From positions 1 through 61,883 of the forward strand of contig JBKGYN010000004.1 in assembly GCA_046546105.1 (NCBI GenBank): DNA of 61,883 nucleotides, written 5' to 3'. The notes under the pieces are model-generated. The model worked only from the letters and a program-made list of their open reading frames with translations, ran no database searches and was not told where the DNA came from. The DNA is from Candidatus Woesearchaeota archaeon (GTDB lineage: Archaea; Nanobdellota; Nanobdellia; Woesearchaeales; SKGA01). The first letter of the stretch is position 1. Every line of letters begins with the position of its first letter. The position numbers and the translations under genes were made by a program. Shown in pieces: positions 9,417 through 52,111 of this stretch.

Positions 9417-9487
9417 CGAATAACCAGTGTTTGTTTAAAAAGGTTTTCTGCTGAAAGATGAGAAAAAAAAGAAACAGGAAAGAACAT

Positions 9488-9769
9488 CTACTCATGAGAA
9501 GAGATGTCTTTCTTATCCGAGAAGACATACTCTTTAAGCTCCTCCTCGAATTCAGCATCGTTCTGGCGAAGCCATTCAATAAGCATAGCAGCATGCTCTT
9601 TCTCCTCAGCAGCGTTGTGAAGAAGGATTTTCTTGAGATTCTCATCCTTGCATGCGTCTGCACGCTGGTTGTACCAATCAGTAGCTTCAAGCTCCTCTTT
9701 CAGGGAATCGATAGCTCGTTTGAGCTCAAGTGTTTTTTCTGATAATTCTTTTCTATCTTCGTGTATCAT
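9488..9769 (-). CDS. Encapsulin-associated-type ferritin-like protein (EncFtn/Flp)
   Basis: SLKEELEATDWYNQR and HNAAEEKEHAAMLIEWLR motifs. Confidence 0.9.
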   Translation of the reverse strand: MIHEDRKELSEKTLELKRAIDSLKEELEATDWYNQRADACKDENLKKILLHNAAEEKEHAAMLIEWLRQNDAEFEEELKEYVFSDKKDISSHE

Positions 9770-21420: not shown

Positions 21421-21840
21421 AGGGCCGGTAGTGGAGAGATTTTGTGTTCCTCCTGACCATGCACCGTCTTATTGTATTAGGTTGATAATTAAAGTGGGGC
21501 GGCGCCTGATAGTGGAAAAACTTCGTTTCTCCTGACCAGTCCCCGCCTTATTAGTTATTTGGTTAAGAAAGAAATGAGAGGGCGGCGCCTGATAGCGGAG
21601 AAACTTTGTTCCTCCTGACCAGTCCCCGCCGTAGTATATGAAAATTAAGAATGGGGCGGCGCCTGGGATTTCCTGAAGCTCTGAAGGATGCCGACACGCG
21701 AGTGTCGAGCACTTCGAAGCCCAAAGCCGAACGCTTTCCGAAGAAAAGAGGGCGGCGCCTGATAGCGGAGAAACTTTGTTCCTCCTGACCAGTCCCCGCC
21801 GTAGTATATGAAAATTAAGAATGGGGCGGCGCCTGGGATT
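21421..21840 (-). repeat. tRNA-His-linked tandem repeats
   Basis: Three 50-nt modules (21498-21547, 21581-21630, 21751-21800) plus a degenerate one (21421-21468); exact 94-bp direct repeat at 21577-21670 and 21747-21840. Confidence 0.95.
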
Positions 21841-21947
21841 CGAACCCAGACTAAGGGATTTCTGCATGCGCTGTGCGAAAGCCCGTGCGGGCTCTGCGTA
21901 TACGCTGCCACAGTCCCTTGTGCTAACCAGGTTACACTAACGCCACC
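21822..21947 (-). tRNA. tRNA-His(GUG) with 48-nt intron at 37/38, encoded G-1 and CCA
   Basis: Exon 1 21947-21908, intron 21907-21860, exon 2 21859-21822; G-1:C73 pair; central BHB helix CTGT/GCAG with GGC and AAA bulges. Confidence 0.93.
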
Positions 21948-47949: not shown

Positions 47950-48945
47950 ATGAAAAGCTGCTGGAAACGGACGATACTCTATGCAAGCCTGATACTCGGA
48001 TACTTATTCTTTCTCTTCTTGACTACAGGAACTTTCTCCACACAGGCTCACGAGACGAGTTTTGTCGATAACGGCTCTACACATTTTTTCAGCTGCTCGG
48101 ACCACGACTGCGCGTATCTGCTCAACACGCTACTCAACAATTCAAGAGAAGCGAGATGTGCCTTCTATGATATTGACACGAGTATTATAACATTACCTGC
48201 ACATGCTAAAACACTCATCTATGACGAGAACTTCAACACCGCATCAGGATCTGGGAGTGAACCAGTTGGAAGCAACGGGCTCATGCACCACAAATTCTGC
48301 ATCTTCGATAACAGAACAGTCCTTACAGGAACGTGGAATCCTACCTACAGGGGAACATACGTCAATGATAATGCCATCATACTACTGCAATCAGATGTCA
48401 TAGCGAAACTCTACAATCGTGAATATACACGATTGGAACAAAGAACTGGTGAACAGAAAGGAACGAATATCCATGCCAAAGAGACCTACAGGATAAACCT
48501 ATCCGGAAGACAAATCAATTTATGTTTCAGCCCAGTACAGGATTGTGAAAGGATGCTCATAACACAACTTGAAAACTCTCAAAACACGATACGCATACTT
48601 GCTTTCATGTTCACAAGCGACGCAGTCGGTGAAGCCCTTGAACGATTGTCATCGAATATAAAAATACAAGGAGTGTTTGAAGCGACCGGAGTATCACGCT
48701 ATAGCGAATTCGATACACTCGTGAAAGCAGGAGCTGACATCATCAGAGACGGGAATCCCGGCTTCATGCATGAGAAGATGATGATTATCGATAATAAGAC
48801 AATACTAATAGGCTCTTATAACCCGACCAAGAATGCAAGGAAACGAAATGATGAGAACCTGCTGGCTATCACCGATCAAACGGTCGCGAGGGATGCTCTG
48901 AAAGAATATGACCGGATAGTGCTGGAAGCGCGTGCGAATCAGTGA
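47950..48945 (+). CDS. Phospholipase D-like nuclease/lipase with two HKD motifs
   Basis: MHHKFCIFD...TGTWN and MHEKMMIID...IGSYN; N-terminal TM. Confidence 0.9.
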   Translation: MKSCWKRTILYASLILGYLFFLFLTTGTFSTQAHETSFVDNGSTHFFSCSDHDCAYLLNTLLNNSREARCAFYDIDTSIITLPAHAKTLIYDENFNTASGSGSEPVGSNGLMHHKFCIFDNRTVLTGTWNPTYRGTYVNDNAIILLQSDVIAKLYNREYTRLEQRTGEQKGTNIHAKETYRINLSGRQINLCFSPVQDCERMLITQLENSQNTIRILAFMFTSDAVGEALERLSSNIKIQGVFEATGVSRYSEFDTLVKAGADIIRDGNPGFMHEKMMIIDNKTILIGSYNPTKNARKRNDENLLAITDQTVARDALKEYDRIVLEARANQ

Positions 48946-49060
48946 AACACATCGACACTTTTAAATGAATCTGCCTGCGCCATTGTCGCGTGCACGAATT
49001 CCGGACGGAGCCAGCCACTACATAACAATAAGCTTTAAATACTATTTATTGCTTGTTACC

Positions 49061-49182
49061 CAGTGTGCAGTGGTTGAGAGCTTTCTGCATGGAGAGAGGG
49101 AAGAATAACAGGGGTGTAAGCTGCCTTGCCCGGATTCTCAAGCATCTGACAAGGTGGCTTTTTCCTTCTCCGATCAATACTG
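49061..49182 (+). ncRNA. Candidate structured RNA/5' leader with loop-loop pairing
   Basis: TATA at about 49034; five stems and complementary loops TTGAGA/TCTCAA. Confidence 0.6.
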
Positions 49183-49209
49183 ATCACAACTATAGTGGAG
49201 GAAGAAAAC

Positions 49210-49725
49210 ATGGCAATCTTGAACTTTGGATTCACAAAGATCAATGTGGAAAAACACAAAAAACCGACTAATCAAGTAAACATCCAATCAGGTCTTAACA
49301 TCAAGGATGTCAAGGAATCAGATGTAGTGAAAGGAACCAAACAAAGAGCATTCTCTATCATATTCTCATTTGAGACAAAGTACGAACCGGACGTGGGTAA
49401 TATCGATCTTGAGGGAGAACTGCTTTATCTCGCTGATGAAGAGACTGCTACTGATATCGAGAACACCTGGAAAGAAAAGAAATCATTACCTAAAGATATC
49501 GCGCTAAAGATTTTCAACAAGATTCTGCACCATTGCAATGTGGAAGCACTAATCCTGAGCAAGGAGATCAACCTTCCGCCACCAATTCAGATGCCTAAGA
49601 TCAAGGACCAGCAAGGTGGTCAGGATAAAGGCGAGCAGGAGAAAAAGACCGCTCAAAAACATGGCGCTGATAAGAATACTGCTAAAAAGCAAGGTGCTGA
49701 CAAGCAGGAAGCCGATAAGAAATAA
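49210..49725 (+). CDS. Conserved archaeal protein, possibly SecB-like fold
   Basis: FGFTKINVEK, FETKYEP, IDLEGEL, LPPPI; GGAGG RBS; start moved to ATG 49210. Confidence 0.55.
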   Translation: MAILNFGFTKINVEKHKKPTNQVNIQSGLNIKDVKESDVVKGTKQRAFSIIFSFETKYEPDVGNIDLEGELLYLADEETATDIENTWKEKKSLPKDIALKIFNKILHHCNVEALILSKEINLPPPIQMPKIKDQQGGQDKGEQEKKTAQKHGADKNTAKKQGADKQEADKK

Positions 49726-49879
49726 TCCTCTTTTGTTTTTCACTTTCTTTATTTTACCAGAAATTTCTCTCGTGTTTCCGCGTTCCATAACTTATAAGAA
49801 TGAGAACAACTTTTTACAATAAGCGTTTTCCAACATATGGGAAAACCATGCATGTATCGAACCCACTGGTGTAATCACT

Positions 49880-52111
49880 ATGACAGAAGACCAGAAAATC
49901 CATCTAAAAGTCGTTGAAGCAATACAAGAAGATGTCAACAAAGGCATTGTCAGGCTTGATAGCTCATATATGAGGAAGATCAAGGTCAAACCAGGAGATT
50001 TCGTCTCCATCACAGGAGAAAGAGCTACTGTGGCAGTGGTAGAACGATCGCTGCCGGGAGATATCGGACTGAATATCATCCGGATGGATGGTCTTGTCAG
50101 GCGAAACGCAAAAACCAGTATCGGCGAATATGTCACTGTAGAGCAAGCAGATGTCAAGCCTGCAAATAAGGTGACGATAGCCCCGGCAAGGGAAGGGATC
50201 AAGATAAAGGTTGATAACCCTGTCTTCTTCAACAGGGCACTGCTCTCGAGAGCGATGCAAAAGGGTGATCTCATATCTCTTGGAGGAAGCTTCTCACGCT
50301 TCGGGCTTGGTGATATCAAGTTCATCACAGTGGAGACCGATCCAAAAAAAGTTCCTGTCGTCGTTACAGAAGATACACAAGTCGAATGCCTCAGTGAAGC
50401 GGTCGAACTCAAGGAAGAACCGGATGTTCCGGAAGTGTCCTACGAAGATATCGGCGGACTTGGTGAAGAAGTCAAGAAAGTCAGGGAGATGGTTGAGCTG
50501 CCACTGAAGCACCCGGAACTTTTCGAACGACTCGGTATCGAACCACCAAAAGGAGTGCTCCTGCACGGGCCACCTGGAACGGGTAAAACGCTCCTTGCAA
50601 AAGCTGTAGCCAACGAGACAAATAGTAACTTCTATGTTATCAACGGTCCTGAAATCATGAGCAAGTTCTACGGCCAGTCCGAAGAGAATCTGCGAAAGAT
50701 TTTCGAGGAAGCGGAAGAGAACGCGCCATCAATCATCTTCATTGATGAGATCGATGCAATCGCACCGAAACGTGAAGAATCCAAAGGCGAGGTAGAACGA
50801 CGGGTAGTCGCACAGCTTCTCGCTATCATGGATGGTCTGAACACAAGAGGAAAAGTCGTTGTCATGGCAGCGACGAACATCGTCAATTCCATTGACCAAG
50901 CACTACGACGACCAGGACGATTCGATAGGGAGATAGAGATAGGTGTCCCGTCGGTAGAAGGCAGGCACAATGTTCTCAAAATCCATACGCGAAACATGCC
51001 CTTGTCAAAAGATGTCAACCTGGAAGAACTATCAAGAATAACACACGGTTTCGTCGGTGCGGACCTGGCAGCACTATCTAAAGAGGCGGCGATGGTAGTC
51101 CTCCGACGATTACTGCCTGATCTCAAGCTCAGCGAGGAAGATTCCATCCCTCAAGAAGTGCTTGACAAAGTAGAGATCAGGAAAGCGGACTTCTACGAAG
51201 CGCTCAAGTCAGTACGACCGAGCGCGATGAGAGAAGTGCTCGTCCAGACTCCTAATGTCAAATACGACGATATAGGAGGCTTGAAAGAAGTCAAGCAGGA
51301 ACTCATCGAAGCGGTCGAATGGCCGCTCAAGCACAAGAAACAATTCCAAAAGCTCGGGGTGAAACCGCCTAAAGGGGTTCTTCTTTATGGACCTCCGGGA
51401 ACAGGTAAGACACTGCTTGCGAAAGCTGTTGCAAAGGAGAGTGAAGCCAATTTCATAGCAGTCAAAGGGCCCGAGCTCCTTTCCAAGTGGGTGAATGAGA
51501 CGCCGCAGCTTGTAAAGAAACTTTTCGAGAAAGCACGACAGGTAGCACCATCAATCATCTTCATTGATGAGATCGATGCTATTACCGCTAATCGTAGCTC
51601 TTCTGAAGGAGGTTCAGGCACTGACAGCGGCATGAACGCTGTCAACCAGCTTCTCACGGAACTTGATGGTCTACAGGAGCTTAACGATGTCGTCGTCATC
51701 GCAGCGACTAACCGGCCGGATGTCATGGATACGGCACTCCTTCGACCAGGACGATTCGATCGTATCATACTCGTCGGTGTTCCTGACAAGAAGGCTCGGG
51801 AAGCGGTCTTCAATGTCCATCTCAAGAACATGAAACTCGCTGAAGACGTTGATGTCGACGATCTCGTTGATCGTACGGAAGGATATGTCGGAGCTGACAT
51901 CGAAGCGATTTGCCGTGAAGCGGTCATGATCGAGATGAGAAAAGACGTTGAGGCAGAGACGATCACGAAAGACTCCTTTGACAAGGCACTCGAGAAGGTC
52001 AGGCCAAGCGCTACGAAGGATATCCAGGATGCTTATGAAGAGCTTCAGGACCAGTTCTCAAGCGCAAAAGGAAAACAGATGAAAGCCCAGAAACCAAGCT
52101 ATTACGGCTGA
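49880..52111 (+). CDS. cdc48: CDC48/VCP AAA+ ATPase
   Basis: Two GPPGTGKT Walker A motifs, [17 protein letters not shown]-domain. Confidence 0.97.

What the first reader, a model, noticed from the sequence alone, without database searches (positions are those of the whole stretch)
49061..49182. Unannotated 120-nt RNA with nested stems and a kissing-loop, upstream of the cdc48 region
Stems: CAGT/ACTG (49061-64, 49179-82); TGCAG/CTGCA (49066-70, 49085-89); GGAGA-AGGGAA/TTTCCT-TCTCC (49091-102, 49161-71); an 11-bp AAGCTGCCTTG/CAAGGTGGCTT (49118-28, 49150-60); CGGAT/ATCTG (49131-35, 49144-48). The two terminal loops carry TTGAGA (49074-79) and TCTCAA (49136-41), which are exactly complementary. 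It starts about 25 nt after a TATA and ends about 15 nt before the RBS. This is the compact architecture seen in riboswitches or protein-binding ncRNAs, but I recognise no known motif.
Basis: partly seen in the sequence, partly recalled or inferred. Interest (0 to 1): 0.7.

Follow-up and report, generated by a model that had tools for sequence, protein, structure and literature searches.

The report
Structured mRNA leader before a chaperone gene
The flagged stretch is a real, selectively conserved two-hairpin RNA at the start of the messenger for a SecB-like chaperone gene in a salt-lake DPANN archaeon. It is known from only three genomes, the proposed "kissing loop" is not conserved, and its regulatory role is inferred, not shown.

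Summary
Three survive comparison: a 5' hairpin P1 (49066-49089), and a long hairpin P2 with a lower stem (49091-49104 / 49160-49171) and an upper and apical stem (49119-49159). Only two relatives carry the same element (L002, L082), always between the same promoter and the same gene. Neutral sites among the three genomes are near saturation, yet four core blocks are invariant. P1 and upper P2 differ in sequence but stay paired: 9 pairs have changes on both sides and 94.7% of cells are paired.

The CAGT/ACTG closing stem and the UUGAGA/UCUCAA kissing loop are not conserved.

The element starts about 23 nt after a conserved TATA and ends 25 nt before the ribosome-binding site (SD) of a 171-aa SecB-fold protein. 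It is therefore most likely that gene's roughly 145-nt 5' leader, not a leader of cdc48. Most genes here and most orthologues are leaderless or short-leadered.

Rfam has no match. The likely mechanism is inferred only: the CU-rich 3' strand pairs either with the invariant purine strand or with the SD.

The parts
49024..49041 (+). Archaeal promoter: BRE-like AACAATAAGC followed by TATA box TTTAAATA (49034-49041).
   Evidence: Nearly the same AACAAyAAsCTTTAAATACT lies upstream of this gene in most orthologous loci. The start site inferred from the usual TATA-to-start spacing is about 49064 (inference).
49066..49089 (+). P1, the 5'-terminal hairpin (UGCAG...CUGCA with a weak inner GGUU/AGCU).
   Evidence: Present in the MFE fold. 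Four pairs have compensatory changes in L002 and L082, whose P1 are perfect 7-9 bp hairpins with UUCA and UUCG loops.
49090..49104 (+). Invariant purine strand UGGAGAGAGGGAA(GA), the 5' strand of the P2 lower stem. It resembles the ribosome-binding site.
   Evidence: Identical in all three sequences. It pairs with 49160-49171. A short uORF starts here but is not conserved (60, 17 and 6 codons).
49107..49118 (+). Invariant internal-loop motif AACAGGGGUGUA, on the 5' side of P2 with 0-2 nt opposite.
   Evidence: Identical in window, L002 and L082. It occurs once in the window. The same 13-mer occurs in the 3' domain of a DPANN 23S rRNA (L075).
49119..49159 (+). P2 upper stem (49119-28 / 49150-59), apical stem (49131-35 / 49144-48) and loop (49136-43).
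   Evidence: Present in the MFE fold. Five pairs have compensatory changes. The 3' strand GGUGGCU is invariant, while the 5' strand changes through wobble-compatible substitutions.
49160..49171 (+). CU-rich 3' strand of the P2 lower stem (UUUUUCCUUCUCC). It is complementary to both the purine strand and the SD region.
   Evidence: UUCUCC is invariant. When the 5' strand is blocked in silico, this strand pairs with GGAGGA in all three sequences.
49172..49185 (+). Small 3' hairpin GAUCA-AUAC-UGAUC.
   Evidence: Present in the MFE fold. Identical in L002, absent in L082.
49197..49212 (+). Shine-Dalgarno GGAGGA (49197-49202) and start codon AUG (49210) of the downstream gene.
   Evidence: Sequence. 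GGAGGA is conserved in L002 and L082.
49210..49725 (+). Downstream gene P0001: a 171-aa conserved DPANN protein with a SecB-like fold and a Lys-rich tail.
   Evidence: No Pfam or NCBIfam family. 92 homologues found. AlphaFold2 pLDDT 80.7. Foldseek matches SecB and Rv1957 at E about 2e-4, TM 0.45-0.59.

Best explanation
The stretch is the 5' untranslated leader, about 145 nt long, of the mRNA for a SecB-fold protein. It is not a free-standing RNA gene.

Transcription starts about 23 nt after a conserved BRE/TATA promoter. The RNA folds at once into a 5'-terminal hairpin (P1) and a long bipartite hairpin (P2). P2 has an invariant purine-rich 5' strand (UGGAGAGAGGGAA) and an invariant 12-nt internal loop (AACAGGGGUGUA). 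Its upper stem is kept only as structure. Its CU-rich 3' strand is UUCCUUCUCC.

Proposed mechanism, inferred and not shown:
- The CU-rich strand is an anti-Shine-Dalgarno sequence. While P2 is closed, this strand is held by the purine strand, and the true site GGAGGA (25 nt downstream) is free, so translation is on.
- A factor may capture the invariant purine strand and loop. It could be a protein, a trans RNA, a 30S subunit (these blocks resemble SD sequences), or a physical signal such as temperature or salt.
- That capture releases the CU strand, which then masks the ribosome-binding site, so translation is off.
- P1 at the very 5' end may also protect the mRNA from degradation.
For: **Shown**
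- The fold is present and kept in the only two homologues, with 9 pairs changed on both sides and 94.7% pairing against 45-62% in slid controls.
- About 15 of roughly 90 paired cells are G-U pairs, and the minus-strand fold is weak. This places the structure on the + strand RNA.
- Purifying selection is strong. Four-fold degenerate sites are only 38-51% identical, the neighbouring PLD proteins are 58% identical, and the spacer upstream of the promoter does not align. Yet 13-, 12-, 7- and 6-nt leader blocks are invariant.
- The element always lies between the same conserved promoter and the same gene. There is no second copy in the 62-kb window or in about 90 other loci.
- A leader this long is exceptional here. 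Seven of 9 window genes with a clear TATA have 29-39 nt from TATA to ATG, and many of the orthologues have 0-12 nt leaders.
- With the purine strand blocked, the CU strand pairs with GGAGGA in all three sequences, at a cost of 2.6-7.8 kcal/mol.

**Inferred**
- The start site, co-transcription with the gene, and the switch itself.
Against: - There are only three sequences, so covariation has no formal statistical power, and the alignment was fitted to the structure.
- No transcript data exist: no RNA run holds the locus.
- The lower stem never varies, so it is untested by covariation.
- Any GGAG/CUCC helix near a GGAGG site allows the alternative pairing, so that pairing is weak evidence.
- In the window's own MFE the SD is mostly paired with P1 (P unpaired 0.19), but it is about half free in L002 and L082. 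The three do not behave alike.
- Close relatives (78% protein identity in L083; an 88%-identical strain in run X2) carry quite different leaders. The element is dispensable and turns over quickly.
- The window has a T5 run inside the 3' strand that could terminate some transcripts.
Confidence: 0.55

Rival explanations
1. The leader is a passive structural leader. It is transcribed with the gene, and its hairpins only stabilise the mRNA (a 5'-terminal hairpin against 5'-to-3' exonucleases) or set a fixed translation level. There is no switching.
For: P1 sits exactly at the inferred 5' end. In L002 and L082 the SD is about half accessible in the equilibrium ensemble. Relatives have other long, hairpin-rich leaders with different sequences.
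Against: A purely structural role does not explain 12-13 nt blocks of absolute sequence identity in a loop and in one strand, when neutral sites are saturated. The invariance of GGUGGCU while its partner strand varies also argues against it.
Confidence: 0.2
2. It is a stand-alone small RNA of about 100-120 nt, made from the TATA at 49034. It ends at the U-run or the 3' hairpin and acts in trans. The chaperone mRNA arises by read-through or from elsewhere.
For: The promoter is 23 nt upstream. The window has UUUUU at 49160-64 and L003 has U7 at the matching place. The structure is compact. This genome is largely leaderless.
Against: The U-run is not conserved: L082 has GGCUUCCUUC and L002 has CUUUCUUUC. 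No other promoter lies between the element and the ATG. The same promoter directly serves this gene in orthologues with short leaders. The element is never found away from this gene.
Confidence: 0.12
3. It is an rRNA-mimic autoregulatory site. The invariant loop ACAGGGGUGUAAG copies the 5' strand of the 23S rRNA 3'-domain helix (H101 region). The SecB-like protein, which has a Lys-rich tail, binds both the ribosome and its own leader.
For: A 13-14 nt exact identity with the 23S rRNA of a DPANN archaeon (L075 669-682, within LSU model positions 2289-2987). Only 1-2 of 300 shuffles score as well. About 0.004 such hits were expected in the 270 kb screened (own estimate).
Against: The identity covers one strand only. 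The 3' strand of the rRNA internal loop has no counterpart in the leader. L003 does not share the similarity. The protein has no known RNA-binding domain.
Confidence: 0.05
4. It is a chance hairpin cluster in a neutral spacer, or a leader peptide or uORF is the real feature.
For: The window fold alone has z of only about -1.7. An (A/G)UGGAG start opens a short ORF in all three sequences.
Against: Invariant blocks and compensatory pairs occur against saturated neutral sites. The uORF has 60, 17 and 6 codons, no SD, and no conserved peptide beyond what the conserved RNA imposes.
Confidence: 0.08

Closest known systems
Translational riboswitch or protein-binding leader with an anti-SD / anti-anti-SD expression platform (for example bacterial r-protein leaders and translational OFF riboswitches)
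   Same: It is a 5' leader. A conserved asymmetric internal loop is flanked by helices that covary. A CU-rich strand can pair either with an upstream purine strand or with the SD.
   Different: No ligand or binding protein is known. It has no Rfam match. It is archaeal (DPANN), is known from only 3 genomes, and the switch has not been demonstrated.
RNA thermometers of chaperone genes (ROSE, fourU, Synechocystis hsp17 leader)
   Same: It is a structured 5' UTR in front of a chaperone-like gene. It has a hairpin with an asymmetric internal loop and a CU-rich anti-SD-like strand.
   Different: In thermometers the SD itself lies in the melting hairpin. Here the SD lies 25 nt outside P2, and in L002 and L082 it is about half unpaired at 37 C. 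The ROSE and fourU models did not match.
5'-terminal stabilising hairpins of prokaryotic mRNAs (for example the ompA leader)
   Same: P1 begins within a few nucleotides of the inferred transcript start in all three sequences.
   Different: That role would not need the invariant loop and strand sequences. It has not been tested in archaea of this group.
Helix 101 region of 23S rRNA (3' domain)
   Same: The 13-mer ACAGGGGUGUAAG is identical to L075 23S rRNA, followed in both by a hairpin.
   Different: Only the 5' strand is similar. The opposing rRNA loop strand is missing, and the downstream gene is not a ribosomal protein.

Membership tests
Any Rfam 15 family (riboswitches, thermometers, sRNAs, rRNA) | A covariance-model score at or above the gathering threshold. 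| tested here: not met
   Nothing reached the gathering threshold in the window at this place. With E up to 10 on 48900-49300 there were only two noise hits, veev_FSE and Pinc, at 13-14 bits.
   The window has 6 nt (about 1% of shuffles). L002 and L082 have at most 3-4 nt, and their P1 loops are UUCA and UUCG.
Structured cis-regulatory 5' leader | It lies between the promoter/start site and the RBS of one gene, on the coding strand, and is syntenic in homologues. | tested here: met
   The order TATA, about 23 nt, P1, P2, SD, ATG is the same in the window, L002 and L082. The start site itself is inferred, not mapped.
Structured cis-regulatory 5' leader | Secondary structure supported by compensatory changes. 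| tested here: met
   Nine pairs changed on both sides; 94.7% paired against 45-62% in slid controls. With only 3 sequences, no R-scape-type statistic is possible.
Riboswitch | Specific ligand binding by the conserved core that alters the expression platform. | not testable with these tools
   This needs in-line probing or ITC. The gene context (a chaperone-like protein) suggests no metabolite.
RNA thermometer (ROSE / fourU type) | The SD and/or AUG is sequestered inside the temperature-labile hairpin. | tested here: not met
   The SD lies outside P2. P(unpaired) of the SD is 0.19 in the window but 0.54 and 0.50 in L002 and L082.
Box C/D or H/ACA guide RNA | C box RUGAUGA with D box CUGA forming a K-turn; or a two-sided pseudouridylation pocket with an ACA box directly 3' of the stem. 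| tested here: not met
   There is no RUGAUGA in 49040-49210 (sequence). The internal loop is one-sided, with 0-2 nt on the 3' strand. The nearest ACA is 15 nt after the stem.
5S rRNA | A three-way junction of about 120 nt with a 9-10 bp closing helix I and loop E; a match to the Rfam 5S model. | tested here: not met
   No 5S hit even at E up to 10. The closing stem is 4 bp and not conserved. The element sits between a promoter and an SD.
Ribosomal-protein-type rRNA mimic leader | The leader copies the rRNA binding site of the protein encoded downstream. | tested here: inconclusive
   There is a 13-14 nt identity with the 23S 3' domain. The downstream protein is SecB-like, not a ribosomal protein. 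Binding was not tested.

The most novel reading that the evidence does not exclude
The invariant loop ACAGGGGUGUAAG and the flanking helix mimic the H101 region of 23S rRNA. The DPANN-specific SecB-like protein, encoded next to Cdc48 and a Lon-like protease, would be a ribosome-docking chaperone. It would bind that rRNA site and repress its own mRNA through the mimic. This would be the first autoregulatory rRNA-mimic leader for a non-ribosomal protein in Archaea, and the first cis-regulatory RNA described in DPANN.
Probability: 0.05. Interest if true: 0.75.

Novelty: new member of a known kind. Interest (0 to 1): 0.38.

Why it matters
Cis-acting regulatory RNAs are scarce in Archaea, and to my knowledge none has been characterised in the DPANN superphylum. 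Those genomes are tiny and, as seen here, mostly leaderless.

A leader of about 145 nt kept under strong purifying selection in front of a proteostasis gene suggests post-transcriptional control in an organism with few regulators. It also gives a concrete, mutable test object: an invariant loop, a purine strand and a CU strand.

The value is limited by the very narrow distribution (three genomes), by rapid replacement of the leader in close relatives, and by the absence of any transcript or functional data.

Tried and rejected
- **Rfam.** Searched at the gathering threshold and at E up to 10. Nothing was found.
- **tRNA/tmRNA scan.** Nothing was found.
- **Covariance models.** A single-sequence model R1 and a three-sequence model R2 were run over 87 and 22 loci and over the whole window, with filters off for R2. 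Only L002 and L082 matched. The hit at window 9417-9522 (E 0.2-0.45) lies in an unrelated spacer and looks like chance.
- **Metagenome pattern scan.** GGGAA-N(2-12)-ACAGGGGTGTA returned 119 stretches. 
- **Viral contigs.** No matches.
- **More relatives.** Nine further look-ups of orthologue contigs and a search with the neighbouring PLD protein found no more carriers of this leader.
- **RNA-seq runs.** None were found. The DNA runs only confirmed the assembly and revealed a strain with a different leader.
- **uORF.** Rejected.
- **Closing stem and kissing loop.** Rejected.
- **C/D, H/ACA and 5S.** Rejected on their defining features.
- **Family-wide 5' CU-rich anti-SD.** Rejected, because many orthologues are leaderless.
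- **Literature.** Searches gave nothing specific.
- **Earlier scan notes.** Nothing bears on this locus.

Full report
**Setting**

The window comes from a DPANN archaeon. The best protein matches are named Woesearchaeota or Nanobdellota. It has an archaeal SRP RNA. The DNA is held by hypersaline-lake and microbial-mat metagenome runs.

The flagged stretch 49061-49182 lies in a 264-nt spacer. Upstream is a PLD-like gene (47950-48945, +). Downstream is a 171-aa ORF (49210-49725, +), here called P0001. cdc48 follows at 49880-52111.

**Observation**

The minimum-free-energy fold of the + strand contains these parts:
- the TGCAG/CTGCA hairpin, P1;
- the purine/pyrimidine lower stem, the 10-11 bp upper stem and the 5-bp apical stem, which together form P2;
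- a small GAUCA/UGAUC hairpin at 49172-49185.

On its own, the window sequence folds only moderately better than shuffles (z -1.6 to -1.8). The minus strand does not (z -0.37).

The 4-bp closing stem CAGT/ACTG is not in the fold. It competes with the small 3' hairpin, and its 5' half lies at or before the inferred transcription start.

**Homologues**

P0001 has 92 homologues in the protein database. More than 400 DPANN genome loci encode a relative. It often lies in the cluster Lon-like / small ORF / PLD-like / P0001 / Cdc48.

I read the upstream DNA of about 90 loci. A promoter, AACAAyAAsCTTTAAATACT, is shared by most of them. What follows the promoter is not shared.

Covariance models built from the window alone (R1) and then from three sequences (R2) found the element in only two other places:
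- L002 (same contig as L001), whose protein is 83% identical;
- L082, whose protein is 81% identical.

No second copy exists in the 62-kb window.

Other close relatives carry long leaders of different sequence:
- L083 (78% protein identity), L084 and L205;
- L003, which shows only patchy similarity, ATTGAAgAGGGGTATGCC;
- a 512-nt contig in run X2, from a strain 88% identical in the coding region, with the same promoter and gene but a different 110-nt leader.

Many of the more distant orthologues have 29-40 nt from TATA to ATG, so they are leaderless or nearly so.

**Selection and covariation**

Neutral divergence among the window, L002 and L082 is close to saturation:
- Four-fold degenerate sites of P0001 are only 38-51% identical.
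- The neighbouring PLD proteins are 58% identical.
- The spacer upstream of the promoter does not align.

Against that background, four leader blocks are invariant:
- UGGAGAGAGGGAA, 13 nt;
- AACAGGGGUGUA, 12 nt;
- GGUGGCU, 7 nt;
- UUCUCC, 6 nt.

P1 and the upper P2 stem are only 33-58% identical, yet they remain paired. The figures are:
- Pairing is 94.7% of cells. It falls to 45-62% when partners are slid by 1-3 columns.
- Nine pairs have changes on both sides, 4 in P1 and 5 in upper P2.
- No shuffle, or at most one of 500, reaches the observed values.
- RNAalifold predicts the same structure independently.
- L002 and L082 fold with z about -3.1.
- Many G-U pairs place the structure on the + strand RNA.

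There are three caveats. Three sequences give no formal power. The alignment was fitted to the model. The lower stem never varies, so covariation does not test it.

**Kissing loop**

UUGAGA/UCUCAA is a genuine 6-nt complementarity in the window, and about 1% of loop shuffles reach it. L002 and L082 have tight P1 hairpins capped by UUCA and UUCG. Their best loop-loop complementarity is 3-4 nt. The kissing loop is therefore not a conserved feature.

**What it is**

The TATA box is at 49034-41. With the usual archaeal spacing, the start falls near 49064, and P1 starts at 49066. This spacing is the same in all three sequences.

No other promoter-like element lies between P2 and the SD GGAGGA (49197-202) or the AUG at 49210. 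The U5 run inside the 3' strand is not conserved.

The simplest reading is a 5' leader of about 145 nt for P0001. This is exceptional in this genome: 7 of 9 genes with a clear TATA have 29-39 nt between TATA and ATG.

P0001 is followed by a T-rich terminator-like stretch, and cdc48 has its own TATA-like box. The leader therefore serves P0001, not cdc48.

P0001 has no Pfam or NCBIfam family. Its AlphaFold2 model (pLDDT 80.7) has four β-strands followed by two α-helices. It matches SecB and the SecB-like chaperone Rv1957 at E about 2e-4 and TM 0.45-0.59.

**Mechanism (inferred)**

The CU-rich 3' strand of the lower stem is complementary to two things: the invariant purine strand and the SD region.
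- With the purine strand blocked in silico, the CU strand pairs with GGAGGA in all three sequences. The cost is 2.6-7.8 kcal/mol.
- With P2 closed, the SD is about half free in L002 and L082.
- In the window's own fold, however, the SD is mostly paired with P1.

This fits an anti-SD / anti-anti-SD switch operated by something that recognises the invariant purine strand and loop. These blocks, and GGUGGCU, also resemble SD sequences.

The pairing is easy to obtain by chance for GGAG/CUCC sequences. I therefore give the switch itself roughly one chance in three. The broader statement, that this is a functional cis-acting leader, gets about 0.55-0.75.

The rivals are a purely stabilising structure, a stand-alone sRNA, an rRNA mimic, and a uORF.
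- **uORF.** It has 60, 17 and 6 codons in the three sequences and no SD, so it is unlikely.
- **rRNA mimic.** The idea rests on a 13-14 nt identity of the loop with the 3' domain of a DPANN 23S rRNA. The identity is statistically unusual but covers one strand only.

**Comparison and novelty**

No Rfam family matches. The defining features of C/D, H/ACA, 5S, ROSE/fourU thermometers and kissing complexes were tested and not met.

It works most like a translational leader with a conserved binding core and an SD-masking platform. It is a new motif of a known kind, restricted to three genomes of one halophilic DPANN lineage.

**Limits**

I could not read the rest of the genome or its rRNA. No RNA data exist for the locus.

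Noticed in passing
window 49210-49725 (+): This conserved DPANN 'hypothetical' protein (no Pfam or NCBIfam) is predicted to have a SecB-like fold with a Lys-rich tail. It often lies in a Lon-like / PLD-like / SecB-like / Cdc48 cluster, so it may be an archaeal chaperone or a Cdc48 adaptor.
   Followed up: partly
window 49024-49056 and 49210-49300, in run X2: A 512-nt contig from a co-occurring strain (11 differences in 91 nt of the CDS) has the same promoter and gene but a different 110-nt leader. The leader is a replacement hotspot between conserved flanks.
   Followed up: partly
L205 1201-1761: The deposited gene call (186 aa) runs through the leader. The conserved start ATGACAATATTA lies about 120 nt further downstream, so the leader is mis-annotated as coding.
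   Followed up: partly
window, whole; loci L002-L081: Most genes with a recognisable TATA in the window, and many orthologues of this gene in other DPANN genomes, have 29-40 nt from TATA to ATG. They are leaderless or have very short leaders.
   Followed up: partly
window 49726-49880: A T-rich stretch (UUUUGUUUUU...) directly follows the P0001 stop and looks like an archaeal terminator. A TATA-like TTATAAGA near 49791 suggests cdc48 has its own promoter here. In L205 and L206 the two genes are only 9-40 nt apart.
   Followed up: no
L075 669-682: The leader's invariant 13-mer ACAGGGGTGTAAG is identical to a segment of the 3' domain of a DPANN 23S rRNA (Rfam LSU_rRNA_archaea model positions 2289-2987).
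   Followed up: partly
window 9417-9522 (+): A weak covariance-model hit (12-16 bits, E 0.2-0.45) lies in an A-rich spacer that shares CCAGUGU and AACAGG with the leader. It is probably chance.
   Followed up: partly
window 21825-21946 (-) and 17056-17369 (+): Rfam finds a 122-nt tRNA match, presumably intron-containing, that ARAGORN misses. It also finds an archaeal SRP RNA.
   Followed up: no
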